From Atractiella rhizophila (Eukaryota), in assembly GCA_021432655.1 (NCBI GenBank), contig MU271348.1, positions 1-51,400 on the forward strand: a stretch of 51,400 nucleotides of DNA. The letters run 5' to 3'. The position numbers were made by a program, and so were the translations under genes. Positions within the stretch are counted from its first letter, which is position 1, and the number at the start of each line of letters is the position of its first letter. Under the pieces are notes generated by a model, which had not been told where the DNA came from, made no database searches, and saw only the letters and a program-made list of their open reading frames with translations. Positions 3,849 to 49,300 of the stretch are shown piece by piece.

Positions 3849-4723
3849 CGCGCCTCAAAGGGCCTGCATATGGTATCCAATAGCCTCTAAATTTGAAGGG
3901 GGTCTATCGATGGTGTGGAATGACACGTCAAGTGCAGTCTGAGAGGGCTGCGAATCAGAATCAGCCTGCGATGCGATATCAACGGACGGACGCTACACCG
4001 GTGAGATCTAGACTCCAACGGGAAGGCAAGTCATAAAATAGGCGCTCCTGCTATAAGGCTTAAAATGGAAGCTATTTTGAGCTTGTCCCTATGTTGCTAC
4101 CACTCAAGCTCTCCTCTTGCTTCGGTCCTTGGGGTGTCGGGTTGCACGCTTGAGGGGCTTTTCCCTTCCAATATGCTAATTGCTTCCTTTGTGCAACAGC
4201 TTTGCGAACACAAGAATCATTAATCAGTGTGGAGGCAAAATGTGAAGAATGTACTTCCTATCTTTTTTTGCCTTTTACTTCCTCAAATGAGCACACTTCA
4301 CCCCTCAGGCTTGCGCAATCAGTGGAATCATTCATTTTTCATTCTACTTACTAGATCCTACCAGATCTATAGTACATTTTTTATCTATCCCAGATAGATA
4401 TTTTCTGTATTTGGAAGAAGCAGTAGTCAGTCATAACTGACCGAGGTTCGCGTTCATTTCAGGCAGGCAATGATCTTTAGAGATTGTCGTAATACGCATA
4501 TGTATCCCACCATTTCTTTCGTCTCGTTGCAGTCTGCGTCCTCACAGCCGAAGGTGCAGCCAGCTGTACATTGGAAGCGAATACAGGAGGTTCTGGTTAC
4601 TTATTGCGTATGAATCTTGTCCACTGGCCCAACTGAGGTGAATACAGATAGTTTATTCACAACTGATAGCTCAATTTACAATTACGCTGTCTCGACGAGA
4701 AACACTTCTCCACTGACTAGTAC

Positions 4724-28755: not shown

Positions 28756-29674
28756 TAAGTTTGGGTCAGACAATGAGAATTGATGCGAAGAAATCTGAGA
28801 GTACTTTCACGCTTAGTGAAGCTTCCTGGACTTGAACGAATTGTATATAGCCAAAATGATCTGTGATGACTGAAACATGAAGATACGAGGTATTATAGTA
28901 GCATCCTGCCAGATGCTACAAACCTGGGTACCAGAAAAGACTCGAGTTAATCTCTCGTACATGGCGCCAGCATGATTCTTGCCAAAACTAGCCAAGTATC
29001 TGTCCAACACCACCATCTTCTTCAAATTGTACGCTTTATTAGGCAACAATGTGACGGGGTAGTCAACCACATATCAGCCAGGACTGCGTGTAAAAAAGAG
29101 TGGGAGACTTTCGAGAATATCTCTCTGGTCAAAGGGAAAAGATAAACTTAACGAGCCTAATTTGTGTCCGGGGCTGACAGTAATGCTCCGGTTTCAACAT
29201 CAACATTATATCTACTTCTAAACTGAAGCCTGCCTTTTTTTGCATTTTACTCGCCTTCGAGTTTATTAAGGGGCAGATCATTTTTAATATATGAAGTTAG
29301 CTTCAATGTTCCCGGTCGTCTACACATCCATTGATATCCGGGGAGCCCCATGTCTCAAAAGCAGCTTTCCCAACAATGAGGCATCTCTTTTCAGACTGGA
29401 GAACTCCAGGATTCCTTCCAGGAAGTGAGAAGGTACGAACTGTATCAAATTTCAAGAAGTATGCCGTTCCGTCTTCCTCGCTCCAGTTCCCATGACTTCC
29501 AGCATAATATCTCCTAAATATCCCAAATTGCAATCATGATGGGTAGAGCCTATGAGTCACCATGTTGGCTCCGTCGGCCAGGCTAGGAGTAAGTGAGGTC
29601 ATATCTCTTTCCCTGATCTTATAAACACACGACGCCAATATCCTTTCAACCAGAAAGTGGATATCCAAGGCGAG

Positions 29675-32481
29675 ATGACATCCAAGTTACTCTTCAAATC
29701 CATCTCTGCCCACATGCAGGGCGAAGGGGGGAAACCACAAACTGCGGTTACGGACTGGATCGAGCGATTGTGCTCTTCAAGTTACGATGAGAACTCGCTA
29801 GACAGTCTGCCTGATTTGGTGGATGTTATCGACATTCAGGTCAGTCTTTCCACATTACAACATTGGATGTAGGATAGAGGGATGGCGGATGAAGCTGATC
29901 ATGTTTCTGGATAGCCGGAAAGTGGGCCGACCGAAGCTAGTCGCGCGTTGAGGAAGAAGTTGAAGTATGGAAGTAAGGAACAACAGTTGAGGGCTCTTAC
30001 CGTGTGTCTTTCTTGTGTTCTCTCGTGGGAGCGAGGTGTCACGCGGTTTCATGTTCTGTACGTGATGACTTCGCAGAACAGAGGAGGATGGAGAGGATGT
30101 GAAGGGATGTATGCCAAAGATTGCATCCCCTATCTTTCAACACAGTACCTATTATATGACCTTATCATGACCTTTACCTTCCTCATCAAAGACGTCGCCA
30201 CATGCTTAGGTTAGATCCAACCGATCTACTTGCAAGTGGCTACGGTTGAGATAACTTCACTACTACGTCTTGGTGCGGCAGGAAGACAGGAGGCACCGTT
30301 GTGGTGTGCTCCATTCAGATTCATTCTTGTTGCACCCCACAAAAAGAGCAAGCCGTAATCACTTATAAGTGATCTTCTCATGGCTAGTTTCATGAGACTC
30401 GAAATATTTGAAACATGGCCCGTGCTTGGCTCTAGAAAAGCGCAGTCCTTCAATAGTGGGCGAAGAACAGTCGATACCGGATTTCCTGCTTCCTTTATCA
30501 GTTTGGAGGATTGATTTGCGAGATCATTTTCCTTGCTCCCTCCTGCTCAATTGACCAGAATTTTGTTGTGACACTGCACTGTTGAAGGGAGAGGCAAGGG
30601 AAGCATGTTGAGAGCGCCTATACCCCCAATCTCGCCGGGCCGTCCTCGTCTGTCACACTTCGGAAAGCAAAGCTTTTCCTTCTATTTGAAGATGGCAGAG
30701 TGGAGTGGAAGAAGGAGACACGCCAAAGGGTTTACTCTCCCCTAAGTCCACTTCAAAAGAGCATGACGGTCTTTACCACCTCTTAACTCGGCTGAGTTAA
30801 AAGTTGTACCTTATGTCCAAACATGGAAGCAAAACGTTTCCTCCGAGCGATAAGATCACGATTGTCGGTGAAAGAACAGCAGAAACGGCTCGTTTGGACT
30901 TCCTTTCTGCTGCTGGCTGAAATTTGTTGTTGTGTTGTGACAATGTGGCACCGCCTTACCTGTTCTGCCTAGTTACTACGTGCTCTGGTCGAGAACTGTT
31001 CCCGCCACTTCAAACGTACGTGCCTTCATCTCTCAGGAAGCCTCGTCGTGACCCTTCTTTAGTGCATTTTGGTGATCAACAGCTGTTACAACGGATCAAA
31101 GAGATGGCGAGGGATTCGACAACAGATCCAAAAGTCAAAAAGAAGTTGATGGTCATCCTCGCAGGCTGGGAGAAGGACTTTGCAAACGAGACGGATTACC
31201 GCTTGAAGACTTTGGCCGGACTCTGGAAAGAGTGCGGCGGTGTCAAGAAGGTGCGTTTCGCGTTCTAGCGATATCCTGCCTAGAACGCGTCTGAGAATTG
31301 AGAAACTTTCGTTCGGATGCAGCCTCCGCCGCCGACACCTGAACAACTCGTGGAGCAAGCGATCGCGCGGGAGAAGAGGGAGAAAGAGCTTGAAGACCGA
31401 CGGTTGTCTGTTGAACGTGCGAGGGAGGAACAGGAGCGTCAGAGGCGGGAACGACTTGAGAGGGAGCGAGAGGAACTGGAGCGGAAGAGACAGGAAAAGG
31501 AAGACAAGAAGAAGAAGTCGAGCACCAAACCAAGTGTGAAGAGGGAGCCATTTAATCTGGAGAAGGAGAAGCCGAAAGTTATGGAGACTATCGCGGTGGG
31601 AACACAAGGAGCGAATACGTGCGCAATGCCTTCGCTTCGCGAAGGAAAGTGCTGATTGAAGGTCGGAACAGGTTGATTAATTCCCTCCGACATGTCAACA
31701 TTCACACTTCCTCTCCTCAAACGGATCCCGCCGTCCAACAAGCCCTTACTTCCGTCAAAGCTTCACGCAAACAAATCGTGCGCTACATTCAACTAGTGGC
31801 CCAGAACCCGTCCTCAGATCCGAAAGGTGAATTCGTCGGCACGTTGATATCGACGAACGAGAAAATTATCGAGGCTTTGGAGGCATACGACAGGTGGGGG
31901 ACCGAGGAAATGACTGCTGAGGAGGCGGAGAGTGTAACGAAAGGCATGAAAGACGTGGACCTTTCTTCCGTTAGCAGGACAAAGGGTAAAGAATTGGAGC
32001 GATTGCAGGAGAAGCAGCGCGTTAGGGTTGGAGCTCATTTGAAGAGGAGGGAAACGATGGATGAGCTCTCGTCGCCGACCAGCGCGAGCGCAGGTGGTGT
32101 GCATCCAGACCTCCAGGATCTCTCATTCGACGACAGGTACGTCTTACCCTACTTTGCATGACTCCCGCAAGCTTTCTTACATTGTCCATGGGATGCAGAG
32201 GCTTGCAACAGCCCATCCAACCAGGCGCCAAGTCTTACAATCGAAATTCCTTCGATCCCGGACTGTCTGACTATTCAGATCACACGGATTCTTCTGACGA
32301 GGAGTCACATAACCGCGCGACAGGGTCAAACAATATCAAAGGATACCAACAATACCTGGACGAACACGACAAAAAGAAAGGACTCCTCGACGATGATGAC
32401 GATCCATTTGCGGACCCTGAGGACGACCTCGTTGGGACGCCAGGGATTCCGAATAGGAAATTGAGTTGGGCTGAGATTTAG
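29675..32481 (+). CDS. LSB5: LSB5-like VHS-GAT endocytic adaptor
   Basis: KPQTAVTDWIERL...SGPTEASRALRKKLKYGSKEQQLRALT|LLRALVENC...LLQRIKEMARD...VKKKL (VHS); FNLEKEKPKV...LINSL...RKQIVRYIQLV...EFVGTLISTNEKIIEAL (GAT); acidic tail DDDDPFADP. Intron 2 is 971 nt. Confidence 0.9.
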
Positions 32482-33220
32482 ATATGTTGTTGACAGTGGA
32501 TTGAATGTGTCGAATGGAAAGGGTGGAAAGAATAACGGAATCTGTGTGTGTTCCCTAATGGACTCACAGTGGCCACTGCAGTGTATTATAAATGACCTAT
32601 TAGGCCAAGTCTGTTTCTCGTATCGATAACGATGTCAAAATATCATGATTTGAATTATCACTGTATCTACTTACTGTAGAATTAGCGGTGTCCGCGGATC
32701 TGGCTGTAAAGGATCACGAAGGGATGTTGAGGGATGCAAACAGATCTCGCCAGACCAGAAGAGGGACGTGGCTGAGGAAATGGTGGGAGTGAAGATGAAA
32801 GGCGGTTCAACAATTTATGAACTGAAAGCTAGCGGGATAAAACCCGCGGCTAGAAGACAACTTCATCGTGTGTACTTCGTCGACTTTCTTCTCTTGATTT
32901 CGACTCTGGCCCTCCGTTGCCCGTGAGCATCAAGGTGACTGATCGGTTTCCTCATACTTGCGGTTGTTTCTCAAACCGTTTGAGAAAATCGTAGCTAAGT
33001 ATTGAAGCGTTGGTGCCAGAAAGATCCTCTGCGTGGAGTCTCAACAGCAGAAATCCAATTCTTAGCTCATTGAATTACGTTCTCCCTTAAATGTGTCTAC
33101 TGCCATTGGTCCTTTGATTCATCGATCGATTCACATTAACACCTTTGACTTTGGATATTGAAAACCGAATTTTTCTCATCAAGTAATTGCAGTAAACTTG
33201 GGTAACGGAATTCATGTTGT

Positions 33221-35151: not shown

Positions 35152-37514
35152 TCAGGCATCAATCTGGCGAGCGTGACCAAACGTTCGCTGCCACTCGCTA
35201 TCGAGGCTGAAATAAGCCCATCCTAGAGAACATAGCACTCCTCTCATAACCTCCCTTTCCCTTTCCGCGCACCTAGTCATCTCTTGCGAAAGGAACGGGT
35301 GACCTTTGACAACTGCATATACATGGCCTAGGACTGTAAGGCGGGATAAGTAAGACTCTTCGTTGTCCTTGAGGTCCCAAAGGTTAGGCCAGCGATCCAA
35401 ACACAAACACGCAGAAGCGGTCAAAAGACTCACATAAAGATGCTCCTCTAACTTCCGGATCGTGAAATTCAAGCATTCTCTGGACTTCTGCTCCAACGAT
35501 GGAGACACGGCCTGAATACCAAAGGCGAGAGCTGCCTTATGCGCCACGAAAACGATGCGGGGTATCTCGCATTCAAGTTGGGCGAGGCAGGAGGAGAATT
35601 CTCTCGCAATATAACGTCCGAAAGCCTCGCGGTACGTTTGGAGTTCTTTCTCTACCTTATTGATACGCAGGAGCAGTTGTTCGAGCAGCTGGGGGATTGC
35701 GGATCCTGGTAGACGGCGAAGAGCTGGAGCGGCGTCAGATGGGTATGGTGAATTACAGACCACACATACGGAAGACGAAATTGTTCATCAGGTAGCGTTG
35801 CAAAGTTGCAATTCGAATAACCTATATCACTCTTCAGCGCCCTCTTCTGGGACGGATAATTCCCGACACTCACAATGATGTTGTAAATCTCACTCTCATT
35901 CGGCATGGTAAAGACGAAGGGAGGGGCATCAATGTCGATGTCCAAAAACCGCTCCACTCCATACTGAGAATGTTTGAAAATGACTTCTATCATCCCAGAC
36001 GTCCTAAATGACACATTGAGGCCATGTTGATTGAGACAGAACAAGAAAACCTACAAAGCAGGTCTATCCCCAACTTGCATCGCAGTCATCGCATCTCGAC
36101 CAAAGATCATCGGCCCAATGCGTCGATGCATGACGGACCGTACTTCTTGAGGAGTAGCAGGGTCGGTCTGCATTTTCAAGGCCATTAGGCTTCATCTAAT
36201 TGATGGGGAGGAGAGTACCATCAATTGCCTGAAATGTCCAATGGTGCTGAGCACATAAGCTCTCCGTTCGTATGCTGTTTCCTCAGCATGATCCAGTCCT
36301 AAATTTATATTTTGGTATTGAGTTGCTCGCAACAAGCACGGAAATAAGACAACAGACCACAATCCAAGGTGCCCTCTAACATAAGAGCAGCAATGACGCT
36401 CTCTAGAGCATTACTTCGCATCAAACCGCCTTTGTCATAAATTTCCACTGCCTTCATGGTCAAGTCCCGACATGCTGATGCTCGCATCGTGCCGTAGCTG
36501 CATGACGAGGAATTGGCCCAAACCTCAGGTAAAGATCGTGACGAAGGAACGCCGAGAATCGCCTTCATATTGTTCAGTCCCCAATTTTGGCGTGCTGCAG
36601 AGATGTGAACACTCACAGGATGAGACGTTCCACGAGCTCCAATGAGTAGGAGGGCCGTGTACATGACCTGAGGATTAGAAAATCAGTTTAGCCCACAAAG
36701 AAACATTTTGGAGGCTCTGAAACAAAAAGGATTAAAGAGACGCGTACAACTTCAGCTTCGCTCCTTCTCCCACCTTCCCAATCCCCAAAATCCATCCAAA
36801 ACTTCTCGCTCGCCGGCAGGGAGAACTGTTCCTTACCACCCATCAGGACGACTCGGCATGTGTCTGCGGGGATGCGCACGCGCGAGACTTCGGCTTGGAC
36901 TACAATAATTTCATCGTAAACATTTCAGTCTCCAAAGTGCAAGAGAAGGAGATAATGTTGTAAACGAGCAGGCAGACGAACCGGACATCAGTTCCCTCCG
37001 AACCTCCCGGTTGGAATGGAAGAGCATGAGCTCCCTCTCTCCTCTCTTGTATGGCTCCGTCCACAGCACCATCTGGGATTCGCTCTCAGAGCTGCCGCTT
37101 CCACCAGAATTTGTGGGAGATGTGGCAGAGCCAAATAATAATCTATTTGAATCAAATCAACCTGATACCCTTATGAAGAAAAGCGGGAAGGACGTACCGA
37201 GCTCCCTCAATGCGTCGTCCGCTCTTTCGACGGCGGTATTTCATTTTCTCTCCTTCCTTGGGATAGGAGCACTTCACACCCTTATCTGAACACCTGTCGC
37301 ACACCTCTTCCGCGTCGTTGCTGCTACCGCTGGACCTGTTGTTGCTGTTGCTACACTTGATCCTCGCTTCGCTGCACGGGATACATGACGGCGCCTTCTT
37401 TCTAGAACTTGCTGTTACATGAGATACTTTGCAGCTCGTTGCTTTTGAGGATTTCGAGGAATTAGCGCTGCTCCCGGTCGCTGAGCTGTTGGAGGATGCA
37501 GTAGTTGGTGCCAT
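35152..37514 (-). CDS. Zn(II)2Cys6 transcription factor 3
   Basis: PSCIPCSEARIKC...CDRCSDKGVKC...KSGRRIEGAR. Middle region GARGTSHP...YGTMRASAC...DKGGLMR...ESVIAALMLE. C-terminal VLCSLGWAY. Confidence 0.85.
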
Positions 37515-37572: not shown

Positions 37573-38761
37573 CAACGATAATTGCGCAAGATAACAGAAA
37601 GGAAGTGAGGGAGGAGACGATGAGCGGGTGTGACCCTTTTATGAGGAAGAGATGAGGATCGGTGTCCCAGTACGTTCCACAAATCTAGTTCCGGATCGTT
37701 CAAGTCTTCGGATCGTTGCCTTCGGTTCAAATTGCGCTCACAAACTTGAGGTTCACTGCCACATCCCAGACGGTTTCAAGGAGGGTTACATTTCACATTC
37801 AGCCGAACAAGAGAGATAGAGAGGTCGGTAGAATTGCTGACTGTTCTTCCCTACTCCCGAAGCGAGCACGAGTAGCAAAGACAGGGGAGATAGTGGAGCT
37901 GCTGACACCAGAATGCGTTTGTGCTTGTCCGATTACGCGAGGCTTGTATCCCGTTCACTTCCTGGCTTCTGGTTTACTGTAACGCGTCTGTGTAACCTCT
38001 GTTCTTCGGGTTCTGCTCATTGGATTGCCACAACACAGAGCTTTGAACCTGTTATGTCATAACTAACTTCCAGTATCAAGCTTTCCTTTGTGCTCTATTA
38101 CAGACTATTTTGGGTGATGACGTACCGCAGGAATGCCAGATTCAATTGCAGAACGTCGCCCTCCCTTTCTGCATTCATCGCTGTGATCCTCCCTGATCCT
38201 CCATATTCTCCTTCCAACATTAAAATCGGGAGCTGATCTACCCATAATAACTGTAAGCCGTCAGACTAACGATGTAATGTCAGTGGGTTTGCCGCAGACA
38301 AACAACAAGGGACACGGGATCGGTGAATGGTGTACGGGATCTTGACGAGACTCGAAGTATGTAGTGGAGCTCAGTTCGCTCCAAAGTGGAAGCAGGGGCG
38401 GGACAGAAGCGTTCCGACGACGACGAGTACGGATACAGAGGTTGGAGCTATTGGGTCAGGAATTAAGATCCGTGGCGGTTTAGCACAACTTACCAACAAC
38501 ATTCAATTTTGAAATCATCTTTCGAGCTCCCTGCCTCTCTCTTCTTCGGCTCCCGGCTCTTCTGAGCCGATTAGCTTCTAGACGAGATGCATCAACAATC
38601 ATTTAGCAAGGGGATATTTGTTGTCATAGGTACATTGTAAGCGAATCAGTGCTCTTAGTTTTCATTCTACACTCTGTCATGATCAATACGTTGTTATTCA
38701 TACCATAAAATGGAAGAAACCGAAGTAAAGAGGGCGATAATTTTTTTTCTTGATGCTATTG

Positions 38762-40441
38762 TTAAGCTGCTGGCGTGGACTTCTTGACCTTGGATGAAGA
38801 AAGCCAGCTGGTTCCCTTCGCGTCTAGCTGCAAGCGACATAGCTCAATGAGAGCTTCCTGCTTGTTGTGAGCGTGACATTTGCCCTTCGCAATGTGTTGC
38901 CTGCCCATTGCATTCAAATGGGGTTGAGTTGGAGCGGGAACAAGAGAAAAAAAACGAACCTTGCTTTGGTCGGCCTTGCGAGGAAAGGATCGCCATCTAA
39001 CAAAGGCGGATTCTTTGGGTCGTCTATCGTGAACTCCTCCGAGAAGAACTTAAAAGACGGATTTTGACAATTGCCTGTTAAAAAGTGATCAACGAAGCGT
39101 GAGTCGGTTGACGGAGGAACACAAACCGAAGTGTAGCAGTTGTCCTTTGAACCATTCTAGAATCTGTTTCAGAAAACTATGTGAACTCAACGAAAACGTA
39201 CCTTCTCGACCATCCGAAGGAAGGATGACCTTTTCACCAAGCCGTACCTCCACGTAGGTCTCCTTATCAAAAACAAGTTTTGTCCACCGTTCTCTTGTCT
39301 CCTTCGTCTTCGGACAATGAATCTTTTCCAAAGGAGAGCGAGGGACCTTTATCTGGACCCGTTTATTTTGATGATCCCAGTAACAGATAAGATCATCTGT
39401 CATTCTGTGGATTGTCAGAATGCTGCCTTTGGGTGAAGCCTTGATCGCGTTCAAAGGTTCCGAAACAGCCGCAGAGCACTGGGAACCACCCTTGCTAGGA
39501 CCTGAATTACTGACAGCGACCTTGGCGCCTTGGAATGTATCAGGAGGAGAGCTGACGCGGAAGGCAGACTCGGACAGATCTTGATTAGAAAGCAGGGTTG
39601 GCATGCTCGGAACGTCGCTGACGGCGAGGTGAGCACCTGTGATACGTTCGTCATGAGGAGGGTTGTTGATATAAAAGGCAGGATCGAGAAAGTTTCTGCT
39701 AGAAATCACTGGCAGGCTCGTAGGATCGTTGAGGATGGTGCCGCCAAATGGCGGCGAAGACATATTCAAAGGAGCACCACCGAGGCCAAAATCAAAATCC
39801 AGCGAATGCAGGTTCTCCCAATTGTCAGTGAAAATGGCAGCTGTTGCATTGTCTACATCGATTGGAGTTCGAGATCGAGAGTGAGAACGTGGGAGCATTG
39901 AAGCAAAAGTATCGGTAATAGCAAATTCTGCGCCAGATGGGCGATGGGAGTGTACCGTTGAAGCTGAAGGCTGGATATCATCAATGCTCAAGGCTGCTTC
40001 AAGAAAAACTAAATCTCGGTTTTCGTCGACCCGAGGATAAAATGTCGGAGCTTCGGATGATGGTGGAGTGAACCTGGTTGCTGACTGTGACCGGGTGACC
40101 CAGGATGAACGAGAATGCATCCTGAGTGGCGCTGGTGAAGGAGGAGTGTTCTGTGCTGACGGAGGATTGGATACTGGAGGACTTTGCAAGATAAAGGTGG
40201 GTGGAGAGTGTCCTGAACGCCATTGACTCTGATGGCGTAGGTGTAAGCGAGCTGTGCTACCAGTAGGAACTGTTTCGTCCTGTGTTGGAGCGTCTCCCAC
40301 AAGCGATTCGAGTGATCGGTGAGGAGCAGAAGGACCACGAAAGCGCCCTCGAGTCAGAAAGTTTAGGAGAGACCTACTCCTAACGGCAAGACGGAATCTA
40401 AACGTATTGCCATCAGGTGAATCCCTCCCTGTAGACTGCAT
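38762..40441 (-). CDS. Hypothetical protein A with conserved, unrecognised C-terminal domain
   Basis: Long ORF 39089-40477 plus three short introns, ending ...RQHIAKGKCHAHNKQEALIELCRLQLDAK...AA*. Clear paralog of 44667-46086. Start uncertain. Confidence 0.8.
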
Positions 40442-46306: not shown

Positions 46307-49300
46307 TCCCTCAAACAATCAAGGCGAGAGATGTCTGGTTCGACGTTCATATTCCGACCTGGAGCAAAAGTAGTAATCGTCTCTTTGAGAAGACGACTTT
46401 CCAGGTGCTTCAAGTTGGTAGATTGAGCGGTGAAGGAGAAGGAAAAAGGATGTAACTGCAAAACGTACAAGGCTTATGAGAGGAGGAGGAAATAGTTTGT
46501 AAGATGAAGGGGTTTATAAAGCTTCTCGTTTCACTCGTTCGTCTCGTTCCCGTCAAGTCGCAATATGGACAAATAAGGACAAACACGTCTTTCAATGGGC
46601 CGTGTACGTAAATAGGCTTTGCTTCACGTTCCCTACTCCATGATTGAAACGAACCAAGATAATCCCCAAGCTGTGCAGGAACTGGAACGAGCTTGCCTCC
46701 TGAGCGGCAGATCTGAGTTGATTTCGCTGATGATGTGGGGGAGAGGGCAGCTGACAGTATCCTTGGAATGGCACGCCGACCTGACACGTTCAGCCCAAAT
46801 CCGACAGGATTAAACATGCTCAAGGCTCTGGGTTGAAGGGTGAGGAGTGGATTTCGGGAGATGGAGTGGGCTAGCAGAGAGGAGGCTTGCCGCAGTGAGA
46901 ACCCCTGACCTCCTCCGGCCGTGACACCCCAACCTCCAGAAGACTTTGACGCCGATAATGGTTTGCCGTGCCTTTCAAGGCTTATCGTGCAAGCTTATCG
47001 TGCAAGCTTATCTTTATGTTGAATCGCTGTCTCGTGGTGGAAGGGGAGAAGGGGAAGACAAGCTCAGCAACTTGGAGCGAACAGCAGCCGTATTTTCGAC
47101 GGCTACCATGGTTGCCGTTCCTCAACTGCACAAGGACAGGATCTTCAGCATCAGAAAACCTCGGGATGCCCCTCATCGCAGCAGCCAAAACACACCCACG
47201 AACGAGGACACAGTACGAAAGCTTGCACGTCGCAGCGCAGCAGGTGGAACGTTGTTCAAAGTACAACGATTCAGAAGGACTCAATGCAGATCGATCGCCT
47301 CGTTCTCTCAGTGCTTTCTCTCCTATTACAAAGCCGAAAGCTTCTCCAAATTACTCCACACTTATCATGACGTATTAGAGCCTTCAGATCTTCAGCCCGT
47401 GTCAGCCTGCAGCAGACCATGTTCATCTTGATCTCCGCCCAAGCTCAGCCCCCCATCGTTCTATTCCTGGACAGTGCGAGAGGTACTTGGAAGTAGCTAC
47501 CAAGTTAAAATGGCACAAACGTGCCAACAGAAGGCGTCATTGGTTGATCACTGCCTGGTTGTGTCGTCTAAACATCCCCTTCTGACCCGCGGAGGCTGCA
47601 TGAAAGGAAGAGTTGAAAGAAGGAAGGAGGTCCGAAAACTGGATTCGCAAGTGTCATTGAGAAAAGCTTTTGAAGTATCCTCGAGTCGTCAGCTTGTGAA
47701 GCTGAACGATATATTACGGAACTAGGCGAATACCAACGCTATCTCGATGTTACAATAAGAAGGAAGCTTTGTGTTTCGCGTCTCTGCAGCAAGATCTTGG
47801 GAGCCCAACTTCCTTCACCCAAGCTTGCCATGCAAGTTTAAGGAAGGAGCTCTCAAGGAAACGTATCCAAAGGTATGAACAAAGGTCTTTAGACGATAAT
47901 TCTGATTATGCCGTACCAACCTGTAACAACTTGACCATGCTTGCGATCAACTGACTCAGCACAAACACGATGAATCGATTCGCTTCATTCGATAGTGAAA
48001 AGGTGGCGGTTACGTGCTTCTGATAATAGTCTCATAACTTCTTTTCTTGGGTAAGAGAAAAGGTGGACAAAAAGAATGCTGAGGATAAATATCCACACTA
48101 GAATACAACCAGTGTTGAAATCCTCAAGGCGTGGAGCGTTTGCCCAATCGCATCCATAAATTATCTTTTCTTTCCTCGTGTTCTTTGGAATAAAGATCAC
48201 GACGGAAAGTCGAAAGATGTTCGTTGGTCATTATCCCTCAAACAATCAAGGCGAGAGATGTCTGGTTCGACGTTCATATTCCGACCTGGAGCAAAAGTAG
48301 TAATCGTCTCTTTGAGAAGACGACTTTCCAGGTGCTTCAAGTTGGTAGATTGAGCGGTGAAGGAGAAGGAAAAAGGATGTAACTGCAAAACGTACAAGGC
48401 TTATGAGAGGAGGAGGAAATAGTTTGTAAGATGAAGGGGTTTATAAAGCTTCTCGTTTCACTCGTTCGTCTCGTTCCCGTCAAGTCGCAATATGGACAAA
48501 TAAGGACAAACACGTCTTTCAATGGGCCGTGTACGTAAATAGGCTTTGCTTCACGTTCCCTACTCCATGATTGAAACGAACCAAGATAATCCCCAAGCTG
48601 TGCAGGAACTGGAACGAGCTTGCCTCCTGAGCGGCAGATCTGAGTTGATTTCGCTGATGATGTGGGGGAGAGGGCAGCTGACAGTATCCTTGGAATGGCA
48701 CGCCGACCTGACACGTTCAGCCCAAATCCGACAGGATTAAACATGCTCAAGGCTCTGGGTTGAAGGTGACGGAGTGGATTTCGGGAGATGGAGTGGGCTA
48801 GCAGAGAGGAGGCTTGCCGCAGTGAGAACCCCTGACCTCCTCCGGCCGTGACACCCCAACCTCCAGAAGACTTTGACGCCGATAATGGTTTGCCGTGCCT
48901 TTCAAGGCTTATCGTGCAAGCTTATCGTGCAAGCTTATCTTTATGTTGAATCGCTGTCTCGTGGTGGAAGGGGAGAAGGGGAAGACAAGCTCAGCAACTT
49001 GGAGCGAACAGCAGCCGTATTTTCGACGGCTACCATGGTTGCCGTTCCTCAACTGCACAAGGACAGGATCTTCAGCATCAGAAAACCTCGGGATGCCCCT
49101 CATCGCAGCAGCCAAAACACACCCACGAACGAGGACACAGTACGAAAGCTTGCACGTCGCAGCGCAGCAGGTGGAACGTTGTTCAAAGTACAACGATTCA
49201 GAAGGACTCAATGCAGATCGATCGCCTCGTTCTCTCAGTGCTTTCTCTCCTATTACAAAGCCGAAAGCTTCTCCAAATTACTCCACACTTATCATGACGT

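What the first reader, a model, noticed from the sequence alone, without database searches (positions are those of the whole stretch)
30002..30972. 971-nt LSB5 intron: hairpin array with a switch-like pairing to its own 3' splice site and a crossed stem pair
Seen: boundaries are fixed by VHS continuity (RALT|LLRALVENC). Stems include GGGATGTA 30104-11/TGCATCCC 30122-29; GCCAC..TAGATC/GATCTA..GTGGC 30197-240; the 16-bp palindrome ATCACTTATAAGTGAT 30358-73; TTTCCTTGC 30528-36/GCAAGGGAA 30594-602; and TTAACTC/GAGTTAA 30783-800. GCAGAACAG 30073-81 can pair locally with TGTTCTG 30052-58 (loop contains a C-box-like GTGATGA) or perfectly with CTGTTCTGC 30960-68, between the likely branch point and the AG. 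GTCCAAAC 30815-22/GTTTGGAC 30892-99 crosses CAGCAGAAA 30877-85/TTTCTGCTG 30904-12 (pseudoknot or alternative folds). Inference: an undescribed structured RNA or splicing switch in a conserved endocytosis gene.
Basis: partly seen in the sequence, partly recalled or inferred. Interest (0 to 1): 0.7.

Follow-up and report, generated by a model that had tools for sequence, protein, structure and literature searches.

The report
Long spliced intron, one notable helix
This is a real, correctly delimited and spliced 971-base intron in a fungal endocytosis gene (LSB5-like, best match Atractiella rhizophila); most of its "hairpins" are near what chance gives, and only one long-range pairing onto its own 3' splice site stands out, so far without proof of function.

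Summary
The intron 30002-30972 is real. All 15 quoted strings sit at the quoted coordinates. RNA contigs of two runs join 30001 to 30973 (GT..AG). The spliced model equals a 508-aa public protein named Atractiella rhizophila.

The intron position is old. 16 of 64 informative fungal metagenome loci have an intron at the same codon boundary, but only 49-80 nt long. The 971 nt are therefore a lineage-specific expansion.

There is no Rfam family, C/D snoRNA, tRNA, protein domain or repeat copy in the window.

Exact 8-9-bp pairs at any distance are at background. Local 7-bp pairs are about twofold enriched. Local folding z ranks 17 of 413 tiles.

One feature exceeds chance. Only 1 of 600 shuffles and 14 of 1040 native tiles match it. 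It competes with a local hairpin in silico.

Verdict: an ordinary long intron, with a possible structural splicing helix that is untested.

The parts
29589..29653 (+). 5'UTR intron, 65 nt, GT..AG
   Evidence: Joint 29588->29654 in one contig of X2.
29675..29839 (+). First coding exon (ATG at 29675), 55 codons
   Evidence: Gene model. Joint to 29915 seen in X1 and X19.
29840..29914 (+). Intron, 75 nt
   Evidence: Joint in X1 and X19. Has a CTGAT motif 16 nt from its end.
29915..30001 (+). Exon 2, 29 codons, ends ..RALT
   Evidence: Matches Pfam VHS profile positions 38-65.
30002..30972 (+). The 971-nt GT..AG intron, phase 0
   Evidence: Joint 30001->30973 in X1 (1 contig, depth 6.85) and X19 (1 contig, depth 447.9). 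Unspliced contigs of X19 tile 29972-30983.
30973..31015 (+). Exon 3, 43 nt (LLRALVENCSRHFK)
   Evidence: VHS match is continuous over residues 21-145 of P0001.
31016..31062 (+). Intron, 47 nt
   Evidence: Joint in X1 and X19.
31063..32481 (+). Rest of the coding region: exons 31063-31250, 31323-31618, 31672-32136 and 32199-32481 (stop). Introns of 72, 53 and 62 nt.
   Evidence: Joints. The translation is identical to P0001. Poly(A) loose end at 32665 in X2.
30058..30116 (+).
   Evidence: the repeat finder I1: 22 nt, 77% complementary. Pair list from RNAduplex, -42.0 kcal/mol.
30945..30984 (+). 3' arm of the long-range duplex. It covers the CTTAC motif, the pyrimidine stretch, the AG (30971-72) and the first 11-12 nt of exon 3.
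   Evidence: Statistics.
30955..30959 (+). Candidate branch-point motif CTTAC (A lies 14 nt from the intron end)
   Evidence: Motif scan. The same pentamer sits 19 nt from the end of intron 32137-32198. The consensus itself is recalled, and the branch point is not mapped.
30052..30080 (+). Local hairpin that competes for 30074-80 (7-8 bp, 15-nt loop holding GTGATGA)
   Evidence: -9.4 to -11.2 kcal/mol. P is 0.88-0.90 in the 2 contexts where the long-range helix is absent.
30104..30129 (+). Hairpin GGGATGTA/TGCATCCC
   Evidence: Strings confirmed. P is 0.96-0.97.
30197..30240 (+). Imperfect 44-nt hairpin GCCAC..TAGATC/GATCTA..GTGGC
   Evidence: Outer stem P is 0.99-1.00. The window 30160-30279 has z = -3.63.
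30358..30373 (.). 16-bp perfect palindrome
   Evidence: Self-BLAST E = 7.7e-4. P is 0.43/0.94.
30528..30602 (+). Stem TTTCCTTGC/GCAAGGGAA
   Evidence: P is 0.96-0.97.
30783..30800 (+). Hairpin TTAACTC/GAGTTAA with a 4-nt loop
   Evidence: P is 0.95-0.97. The X19 difference at 30792 falls in the loop.
30815..30912 (+). Two crossing complementarities: 30815-22/30892-99 and 30877-85/30904-12
   Evidence: Strings confirmed. Only the second is predicted: P 0.91/0.30 vs 0.00.

Best explanation
This is an ordinary U2-type spliceosomal intron at an old intron position of the LSB5-like VHS/GAT gene. In the lineage of this fungus (best match Atractiella rhizophila) it has grown to 971 nt, about 12-20 times the usual size.

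It is transcribed with the gene and removed precisely. The mRNA then encodes an uninterrupted VHS domain.

The extra ~900 nt are most likely non-coding filler, possibly a decayed insertion (inferred, not shown). They do not host a separate RNA gene.

Most of the listed stems are what about 1 kb of non-coding DNA of this composition offers.

Shown: the boundaries, the splicing, the shared intron position, and the absence of known RNA families, ORF domains and repeats in the window.

Inferred: lack of a dedicated function for the interior.
For: - Splicing: joint 30001->30973 in X1 and X19. The model is identical to the 508-aa P0001. VHS is continuous over the junction at 81.6 bits.
- Intron sizes: the other introns of the gene are 65, 75, 47, 72, 53 and 62 nt.
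- Shared position: a GT..AG intron at the same codon boundary occurs in 16 of 64 motif-bearing loci, 49-80 nt long, median 52.
- Known RNA families: 0 at gathering score in 51,400 nt. Six sub-threshold hits, best E = 0.86.
- Other elements: 0 C/D candidates on either strand; 0 tRNAs; 0 Pfam families in 9 intron ORFs.
- Repeats: no copy of the intron elsewhere in the window, best E = 0.5.
- Structure: 8- and 9-bp pairs at any distance are at background. Mean local folding z is -0.69, rank 17 of 413.
- Variation: differences between X19 and the window lie in the intron at 10 places.
Against: - Local 7-bp inverted pairs are about twofold enriched: 18 vs 8.6+-3.1, and only tiles overlapping the intron reach this.
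- Whole-intron MFE z is -2.32.
- The + strand folds somewhat better than the - strand: mean z -0.68 vs -0.39.
- The duplex between 30058-30116 and 30945-30984 is matched by only 1 of 600 shuffled bodies and 14 of 1040 native tiles. For the 22-nt core the figures are 0 of 600 and 38 of 1040.
- Exon 3 starts with the two rarest Leu codons, TTA and CTA (5.3% and 7.9% of Leu codons in long ORFs of the window). Both lie inside that duplex.
- No close relative could be compared, so lineage-specific constraint is untested.
Confidence: 0.6

Rival explanations
1. Structural splicing helix with a competing hairpin.

The segment 30058-30116, which starts 56 nt after the 5' splice site, pairs with 30945-30984. 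[quoted passage not shown]

The local hairpin 30052-58/30074-80 forms first during transcription and competes for the same bases. The balance between the two folds could set splicing efficiency.

Alternatively, the helix could hide the AG and branch-point motif and so delay splicing.
For: - The 22-nt core has 17 Watson-Crick pairs plus 2 G.U pairs, at -23.8 kcal/mol. The full duplex has 33 bp at -42.0 kcal/mol.
- 1 of 600 and 0 of 600 shuffles reach these values, and 14 of 1040 native tiles.
- The helix is predicted with P 0.97-0.99 in 5 of 7 sequence contexts. The local hairpin has P 0.88-0.90 in the other 2.
- The position of the 5' arm resembles the yeast RPL7B enhancer, which pairs intron positions 49-76 with 331-356 (PMC12311795, passages read). 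It also resembles zipper stems, predicted at high confidence in 32 of 88 probed yeast introns (PMC12350175, passages read).
- Rare Leu codons lie in the exonic part of the arm.
Against: - The feature was picked post hoc from many. Against native tiles the 22-nt core reaches only 38 of 1040.
- The prediction flips with context: P 0.00-0.03 in 2 of 7 contexts.
- The 3' arm covers, or lies downstream of, the likely branch point and pairs the AG. This does not fit the zipper-stem definition and should hinder rather than help.
- There are no comparative data.
- In X19 the contig carrying the spliced joint has depth 448 against 17-46 for the unspliced contigs, so no sign of strong retention is seen (depths are rough).
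Confidence: 0.25
2. The intron hosts something independent. This could be an intronic small RNA (snoRNA-like), a long non-coding or antisense transcript, or a DNA-level regulatory element.
For: - A C-box-like GTGATGA lies at 30062.
- One 151-nt contig of the root metatranscriptome X1 lies wholly inside the intron (30342-30487, depth 2.8).
- The density of local hairpins is raised.
Against: - There is no D box within 50-260 nt and no terminal stem: 0 candidates, against 0.43 expected by chance.
- No Rfam hit was found.
- The X19 intron contigs include pieces that run across both splice sites (29972-30180 and 30490-30983). Their depths are similar to the interior pieces (46 and 23 vs 17-25). That fits unspliced precursor rather than an excised or separate stable RNA (contig depths are rough, and the library type is unknown).
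- The single X1 contig is at noise level, and DNA carry-over cannot be excluded.
Confidence: 0.07
3. Origin by mobile DNA. The extra ~900 nt derive from a transposon, MITE or introner-like element that inserted into a formerly ~50-80-nt intron. The inverted repeats would be its relics.

This concerns origin and is compatible with the best explanation.
For: - Same-position introns elsewhere are 49-80 nt.
- Removing 30073-30968 (896 nt bounded by the 9-bp inverted repeat) would leave 75 nt, which is a normal intron size. This is arithmetic.
- Introner-like elements are described as longer than regular introns and as having stable predicted structures (PMC3609843, abstract and passages read).
Against: - There is no target-site duplication beside the 9-bp repeat (read directly).
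- The complementarity runs on into conserved exon sequence, which an inserted element would not supply.
- No copy occurs elsewhere in the 51.4-kb window.
- No transposase-like ORF was found.
- GC content equals that of the surroundings: 0.473 vs 0.455/0.520.
- The intron position is shared and therefore not newly gained.
Confidence: 0.2

Closest known systems
Zipper stems / structural splicing enhancers of long S. cerevisiae introns (RPS17B, RPL7A/B). Sources: PMC12350175 and PMC12311795 (passages read); PMC2536676 (search-listing abstract only).
   Same: Both have a long-range helix whose 5' arm starts some 50-80 nt after the 5' splice site, in an intron much longer than the short class. In RPL7B a mutually exclusive alternative fold competes for the same bases. 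Here the local hairpin 30052-80 competes for 30074-80.
   Different: Here the 3' arm lies on and downstream of the likely branch-point motif and pairs the AG and the start of exon 3, rather than ending upstream of the branch point. Nothing has been probed or mutated. No conservation is known. The organism is a Pucciniomycotina basidiomycete, not a yeast.
Structures that mask or position 3' splice sites or branch sites. Sources: COF1 hairpin (PMC3239191) and concealed branch sites (PMC11162794), search-listing abstracts only.
   Same: The AG and the CTTAC motif would be base-paired if the helix forms.
   Different: Those are local hairpins near the branch point. Here the partner lies about 880 nt away. 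No alternative 3' site or skipped form was seen among the joints.
Introner-like elements of fungi (PMC3609843, abstract and passages read)
   Same: The intron is longer than regular introns, has canonical splice signals, and its predicted structure is more stable than shuffles (z = -2.32).
   Different: Introner-like elements are defined by many near-identical copies and by newly gained positions. Here the position is shared with 16 other loci. No copy is seen in the window. The whole genome could not be searched.
Ordinary basidiomycete introns at this same site
   Same: They share the codon boundary (after RAL[T/V], phase 0) and GT..AG ends.
   Different: They are 49-80 nt long, against 971 nt here.

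Membership tests
U2-type spliceosomal intron | GT..AG ends, and an exact exon-exon joint in RNA | tested here: met
   GTGTGT..TAG. The joint 30001->30973 is seen in X1 and X19.
U2-type spliceosomal intron | Branch-point-like motif near the 3' end | tested here: inconclusive
   CTTAC has its A 14 nt from the end. The consensus is recalled, and the lariat is not mapped.
LSB5-like VHS/GAT protein | VHS domain above Pfam's gathering score | tested here: met
   81.6 bits against a cut-off of 29.8, residues 21-145 of P0001.
LSB5-like VHS/GAT protein | GAT domain | tested here: inconclusive
   23.7 bits, below the cut-off of 31. Homologues carry precomputed PF03127. Sources name P0044 'Protein lsb5' and P0047 'LAS seventeen-binding protein 5'.
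Zipper stem (PMC12350175) | Stem of at least 6 bp | tested here: met
   9-bp core, and 19 of 22 positions paired when G.U pairs are counted. This is in silico only.
Zipper stem (PMC12350175) | 42-85 nt in total linking the 5' splice site, the stem and the branch point, with the stem lying between them | tested here: not met
   The 5' linker is 56-71 nt. But the 3' arm (30945-30984) overlaps and lies downstream of the CTTAC motif at 30955-59. The branch point is not mapped.
Zipper stem (PMC12350175) | Helix confidence from in-vivo DMS probing of at least 70% | not testable with these tools
   No probing data are available.
Downstream stem (PMC12350175) | [quoted passage not shown] | tested here: not met
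   Only about 13 nt lie between CTTAC and the AG, and the partner arm is about 880 nt upstream.
Introner-like element | Many near-identical copies in the genome | not testable with these tools
   No genome is held. There is no copy in the other 50.4 kb of the window, and no look-alike in the scan's index.
Introner-like element | Newly gained intron position | tested here: not met
   The same boundary is occupied in 16 of 64 loci.
Intronic C/D box snoRNA | C box and D box 50-260 nt apart, with a terminal stem | tested here: not met
   0 candidates on both strands. The only CTGA sites are at 30792 and 30917, and the only exact C box is at 30062. Rfam gives nothing. H/ACA architecture was not scanned separately.
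Any Rfam 15 family | Score at or above the family's gathering threshold | tested here: not met
   0 matches in the window. The best sub-threshold hit has 20.5 bits against a threshold of 47.
H-type pseudoknot | Two crossing helices that form together | tested here: inconclusive
   Both complementarities exist. The nested folding model predicts only 30877-85/30904-12. No pseudoknot-capable folding was run, and there is no covariation.

The most novel reading that the evidence does not exclude
A fungus whose introns are normally about 50-80 nt may splice this 971-nt intron only because an ~880-nt-range helix ties a segment about 60 nt behind the 5' splice site to the branch-point/3' splice-site region. 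A co-transcriptionally formed local hairpin competes for the same bases.

LSB5 output would then be tuned by RNA folding. This would be a zipper-stem-like structural splicing enhancer or switch outside the Saccharomycotina, with an unusual geometry in which the arm lies on the 3' splice site.
Probability: 0.2. Interest if true: 0.5.

Novelty: new member of a known kind. Interest (0 to 1): 0.22.

Why it matters
As it stands this is an annotation-level result. The intron is already implied by the public 508-aa protein model, and it behaves as a normal intron.

It would matter only if the long-range helix proved functional. Structure-assisted splicing of over-long introns is documented in budding yeast. 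An example in a Pucciniomycotina root endophyte, with the helix placed on the 3' splice site, would widen that principle and offer a simple mutational test system.

The result also shows how such 'hairpin array' findings can be judged against native-sequence controls.

Tried and rejected
- **Whole genome.** None is held for this window. Copy number of the intron and the genome's intron-length distribution are therefore untested.
- **Metagenome scans.** The scan with P0001 alone matched 425 stretches, none a relative. The second scan, with the 20-protein alignment A1, gave only distant relatives: best-segment identity to the query is 26-57%. No alignment or covariation test of the intron itself was possible.
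- **Earlier findings of this scan.** Nothing by place, by sequence or by words.
- **Tandem repeats.** Two trivial arrays, scores 31 and 37.
- **TIR/TSD reading of the 9-bp repeat.** Rejected. There is no duplication of flanking bases, and the complementarity continues into the exon.
- **Variants as a structure test.**
  - 10 single-base differences in X19 and one 3-nt gap in X1.
Those stems cover about 15% of the intron, so about 1.5 hits were expected, and the test is uninformative.
  - The 3-nt gap at 30373 can be placed so that the palindrome stays intact.
- **X1's single contig inside the intron** (30342-30487, depth 2.8). Too little to call a transcript.
- **Parts of the stretch without cover** in X1, X2 and X7 are not evidence of anything.
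- **A void result.** The row 'H2b' used coordinates shifted by one base (my slip) and should be ignored.
- **Not run.** Whole-intron z-scores for other 971-nt tiles were not computed. The 120-nt window scan covered 420 of 428 windows before the time limit.
- **Literature.**
  - 'LSB5' + 'intron': 6 papers, none about an intron structure judging by listing, title and abstract.
  - 'Atractiella' + 'intron length': 3 papers hold both terms, 2 listed, no relevant statistics. PMC4392786 gives only genome size and gene number for 'Atractiellales sp.'.
Full report
**What is there**

The window is eukaryotic, and the region holds a multi-exon gene on the + strand.
- Reading the sequence and translating candidate exons gave a 508-codon model.
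- Coding exons: 29675-29839, 29915-30001, 30973-31015, 31063-31250, 31323-31618, 31672-32136 and 32199-32481.
- Introns: 75, 971, 47, 72, 53 and 62 nt, all GT..AG.
- The translation is letter-for-letter identical to P0001, a 508-aa public protein that a source names as a hypothetical protein of Atractiella rhizophila.
- The next relatives are only about 33-43% identical over the exon-6 query.
- P0001 has a VHS domain at 81.6 bits (cut-off 29.8). It runs continuously over residues 21-145, that is, across the junction at residue 84/85.
- P0001 also has a GAT match of 23.7 bits, below the cut-off of 31.
- Exon by exon, exon 2 matches VHS profile positions 38-65 and exon 4 matches positions 85-128.
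- In a 20-protein alignment the junction shows no insertion or deletion relative to the homologues.
- Sources name homologues 'Protein lsb5' and 'LAS seventeen-binding protein 5'.

**RNA evidence**
- 23 public runs hold part of the gene, 6 of them on record as RNA, among them root metatranscriptomes.
- I laid four runs, all as contigs.
- The joint 30001->30973 (skips 971, GT..AG) stands in one contig of X1 (RNA, depth 6.85, 43 letters on the shorter side). It also stands in one contig of X19 (kind not on record, depth 447.9, 30 letters on the shorter side).
- All other introns of the model are also seen as joints in at least one run.
- There is an additional 65-nt intron in the 5'UTR (29589-29653, X2), and a poly(A) loose end at 32665 (X2).
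- X19 also holds unspliced contigs that tile 29972-30983 across both splice sites, at depths 17-46. The contigs carrying the spliced joints have depths 448-654.
- Contig depths are one figure per contig, so this is only a rough sign that most transcripts are spliced.
- No joint inside the intron was listed: no internal exon, no nested splicing, no skipping of the 43-nt exon 3.
- X19 may be the strain from which the window was assembled, so it is not independent support for the sequence.

All 15 quoted strings are at their coordinates. The tests against chance gave the following.

| Feature | Intron | Control | Source |
|---|---|---|---|
| Inverted 9-mers, any distance | 2 | 1.63 in shuffles; 139 of 300 reach it | |
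| Inverted 9-mers, any distance | 4 | 2.75 in native 971-nt tiles; 60 of 208 reach it | |
| Inverted 8-mers, any distance | 11 | 9.8 in native tiles; 85 of 208 | |
| Local (<=120 nt) 7-mers | 13 | 5.8+-2.3 in shuffles; 1 of 300 | |
| Local (<=120 nt) 7-mers | 18 | 8.6+-3.1 in native tiles; 2 of 208, both overlapping this intron | |
| Hairpin-type local pairs | 12 | 5.4+-2.5; 4 of 208 | |
| Short palindromes | 6 | 3.1+-1.8; 25 of 208 | |

Folding results:
- The whole intron folds at -312.1 kcal/mol, z = -2.32, and 0 of 20 shuffles are as stable.
- 120-nt windows were computed over the whole window (420 of 428, + strand). They have mean z 0.02 and sd 1.19.
- The intron's eight windows average -0.69, which ranks 17 of 413 running tiles. 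None is among the 15 most negative windows.
- In the finer scan of 29400-31599, the intron averages -0.68 on the + strand and -0.39 on the - strand. Outside it the averages are -0.01 and -0.08.

The 'hairpin array' is therefore a modest enrichment of short local stems. It is not an outstanding structure.

**What it is not**
- Rfam: no family at gathering score in the 51,400 bases. Six matches at E up to 10 in 29600-31400, the best at E = 0.86, all far below threshold.
- C/D snoRNA: the C-box-like GTGATGA at 30062 has no D box within range, because the only CTGA sites are at 30792 and 30917. There are 0 C/D candidates on either strand, against 0.43+-0.66 in shuffles.
- tRNA: none.
- ORFs: the longest stop-to-stop frame inside the intron is 106 aa. 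Nine intron ORFs give 0 Pfam families at E <= 1.
- Repeats: no part of the intron recurs elsewhere in the window, best BLAST E = 0.5.
- Composition: GC content matches the surroundings.

**Relatives**
- No genome is held for the window.
- A metagenome scan with P0001 found no relative.
- A scan with the alignment A1 returned 77 loci, all distant, with 26-57% best-segment identity to the query.
- 64 of the 77 carry the EASRA..RKK motif just upstream of the junction. They divide as follows.
  - 16 have a GT..AG intron at exactly the same codon boundary (after RAL[V/T], phase 0). Lengths are 49-80 nt, median 52. Some are duplicates of one another, for example L058/L059/L076.
  - 28 read straight through. 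Several of these look like cDNA or like ascomycete-type sequences.
  - 20 fall in the 'other' class. 17 of these lose the frame directly after RKK or RKKL, which suggests an intron there instead. L066 has a 50-nt candidate with a GC donor at the same boundary. For L060 and L061 (GT directly after RALF) no acceptor was found.
- The intron position is therefore old and widely shared, and the 971-nt length is specific to this lineage.
- It cannot exclude a lineage-specific function, because no close relative was available.

**The one feature that exceeds chance**
- RNAduplex gives -23.8 kcal/mol for this core, with 19 of 22 positions paired when G.U pairs are counted.
- RNAduplex gives -42.0 kcal/mol for a 33-bp interrupted duplex between 30058-30116 and 30946-30983.
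- The 3' arm covers the CTTAC motif (30955-59, the likely branch point), the AG (30971-72 pairs with 30069-70) and the first 11 nt of exon 3.

| Probe | Body shuffled | Native tiles of the same geometry | Source |
|---|---|---|---|
| 41 nt | 1 of 600 reach -42.0 (mean -31.0, sd 3.0) | 14 of 1040 (mean -29.2, sd 5.1) | |
| 22 nt | 0 of 600 | 38 of 1040 | |

- Partition-function folding puts the helix at P 0.97-0.99 in 5 of 7 contexts: the intron alone, +-20, +-50, +-100, and intron to exon 4.
- It puts the helix at 0.00-0.03 in the other 2 contexts (29915-31015 and 29675-31250). There the local hairpin 30052-58/30074-80 takes over with P 0.88-0.90.
- The 'switch-like' description thus holds at the level of the folding model. 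But flips of this kind are common for kilobase RNAs, and the feature was selected after the fact.
- A small further hint: exon 3 begins with TTA and CTA, the two rarest Leu codons here. They make up 5.3% and 7.9% of Leu codons in 21 long ORFs of the window, and 3 each of 47 Leu codons in this gene. Both lie in the duplex.

**Crossed stems**
- Both complementarities exist.
- In nested folding, only 30877-85/30904-12 is predicted (P 0.91 for the intron alone, 0.30 in the longer context). 30815-22/30892-99 has P 0.00.
- Local 8-mers of this kind number 8 in the intron against 4.3+-2.3 per native tile, and 20 of 208 tiles reach 8.
- I see no basis for calling this a pseudoknot.

**Comparison with what is known**
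- The best analogy is the zipper stem, or structural splicing enhancer, of long budding-yeast introns.
[quoted passage not shown] Such stems were predicted for 32 of 88 probed introns.
- In RPL7B a helix pairs intron positions 49-76 with 331-356. A mutually exclusive fold, bound by Rpl7, turns it off (PMC12311795, passages read).
- Here the 5' arm has a similar position. But the 3' arm lies on and behind the likely branch point and pairs the AG, so the zipper-stem definition is not met. The expected effect on splicing is ambiguous.
- Introner-like elements share the length and the predicted stability (PMC3609843, abstract and passages read). They are defined by many copies and by new positions. 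The first could not be tested and the second is not met.
- I found no paper on an LSB5 intron structure. The search for 'LSB5' + 'intron' gave 6 papers, none relevant by listing.

**Verdict**
- This is a genuine, correctly delimited and spliced long intron at an ancient site.
- Its interior shows no sign of a separate RNA gene or of coding or mobile-element remnants.
- Its local stems are only mildly above background.
- One long-range duplex onto the branch-point/3' splice-site region is statistically notable. It is a reasonable but unproven candidate for structure-assisted or structure-gated splicing.
- My estimates are about 0.6 for 'no dedicated function' and about 0.25 for a functional helix or switch.

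Noticed in passing
window 29589-29653: A 65-nt GT..AG intron in the 5'UTR of the same gene, seen as a joint in one X2 contig. A second X2 contig (29572-29669) runs through it unspliced.
   Followed up: partly
window ~32665: A poly(A) loose end in X2 marks the likely 3' end of the mRNA, about 184 nt after the stop codon.
   Followed up: no
window 30399-30519: X19 holds two versions of this intron stretch, at depths 24.6 and 7.5. They differ at 6 of 121 places, as expected for two haplotypes or nuclei.
   Followed up: no
window 30973-30978: Exon 3 opens with TTA and CTA, the two rarest Leu codons in long ORFs of the window (5.3% and 7.9%). Both lie inside the long-range duplex.
   Followed up: partly
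window 35160-36240; also 4322-4441: This is the strongest run of negative local folding z in the window: tiles starting at 35282-35522 average -1.05 to -1.22, and single windows at 35522, 36122 and 4322 have z of -3.68, -3.27 and -3.59. The 35-36 kb region overlaps long minus-strand ORFs. No Rfam family was found.
   Followed up: partly
window 38640-40100 and 47390-48600: Tiles here have as many local 7-bp hairpin-type inverted pairs as the intron: 11-14 per 971 nt. Their content was not examined.
   Followed up: no
P0047 and P0005 (public protein records): P0047 reads RALT followed by an unrelated stretch (VRSFTRTEDAV..) exactly at this intron boundary. P0005 lacks the equivalent of exon 3. 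Both look like gene-model errors at the same splice site in other fungi, and they hint that the site is also an intron there.
   Followed up: no
window 30358-30373: A perfect 16-bp palindrome. My own estimate is about 0.015 expected by chance in 971 nt and about 0.8 in the whole window. X1 has a 3-nt gap at its edge that leaves the palindrome intact.
   Followed up: partly
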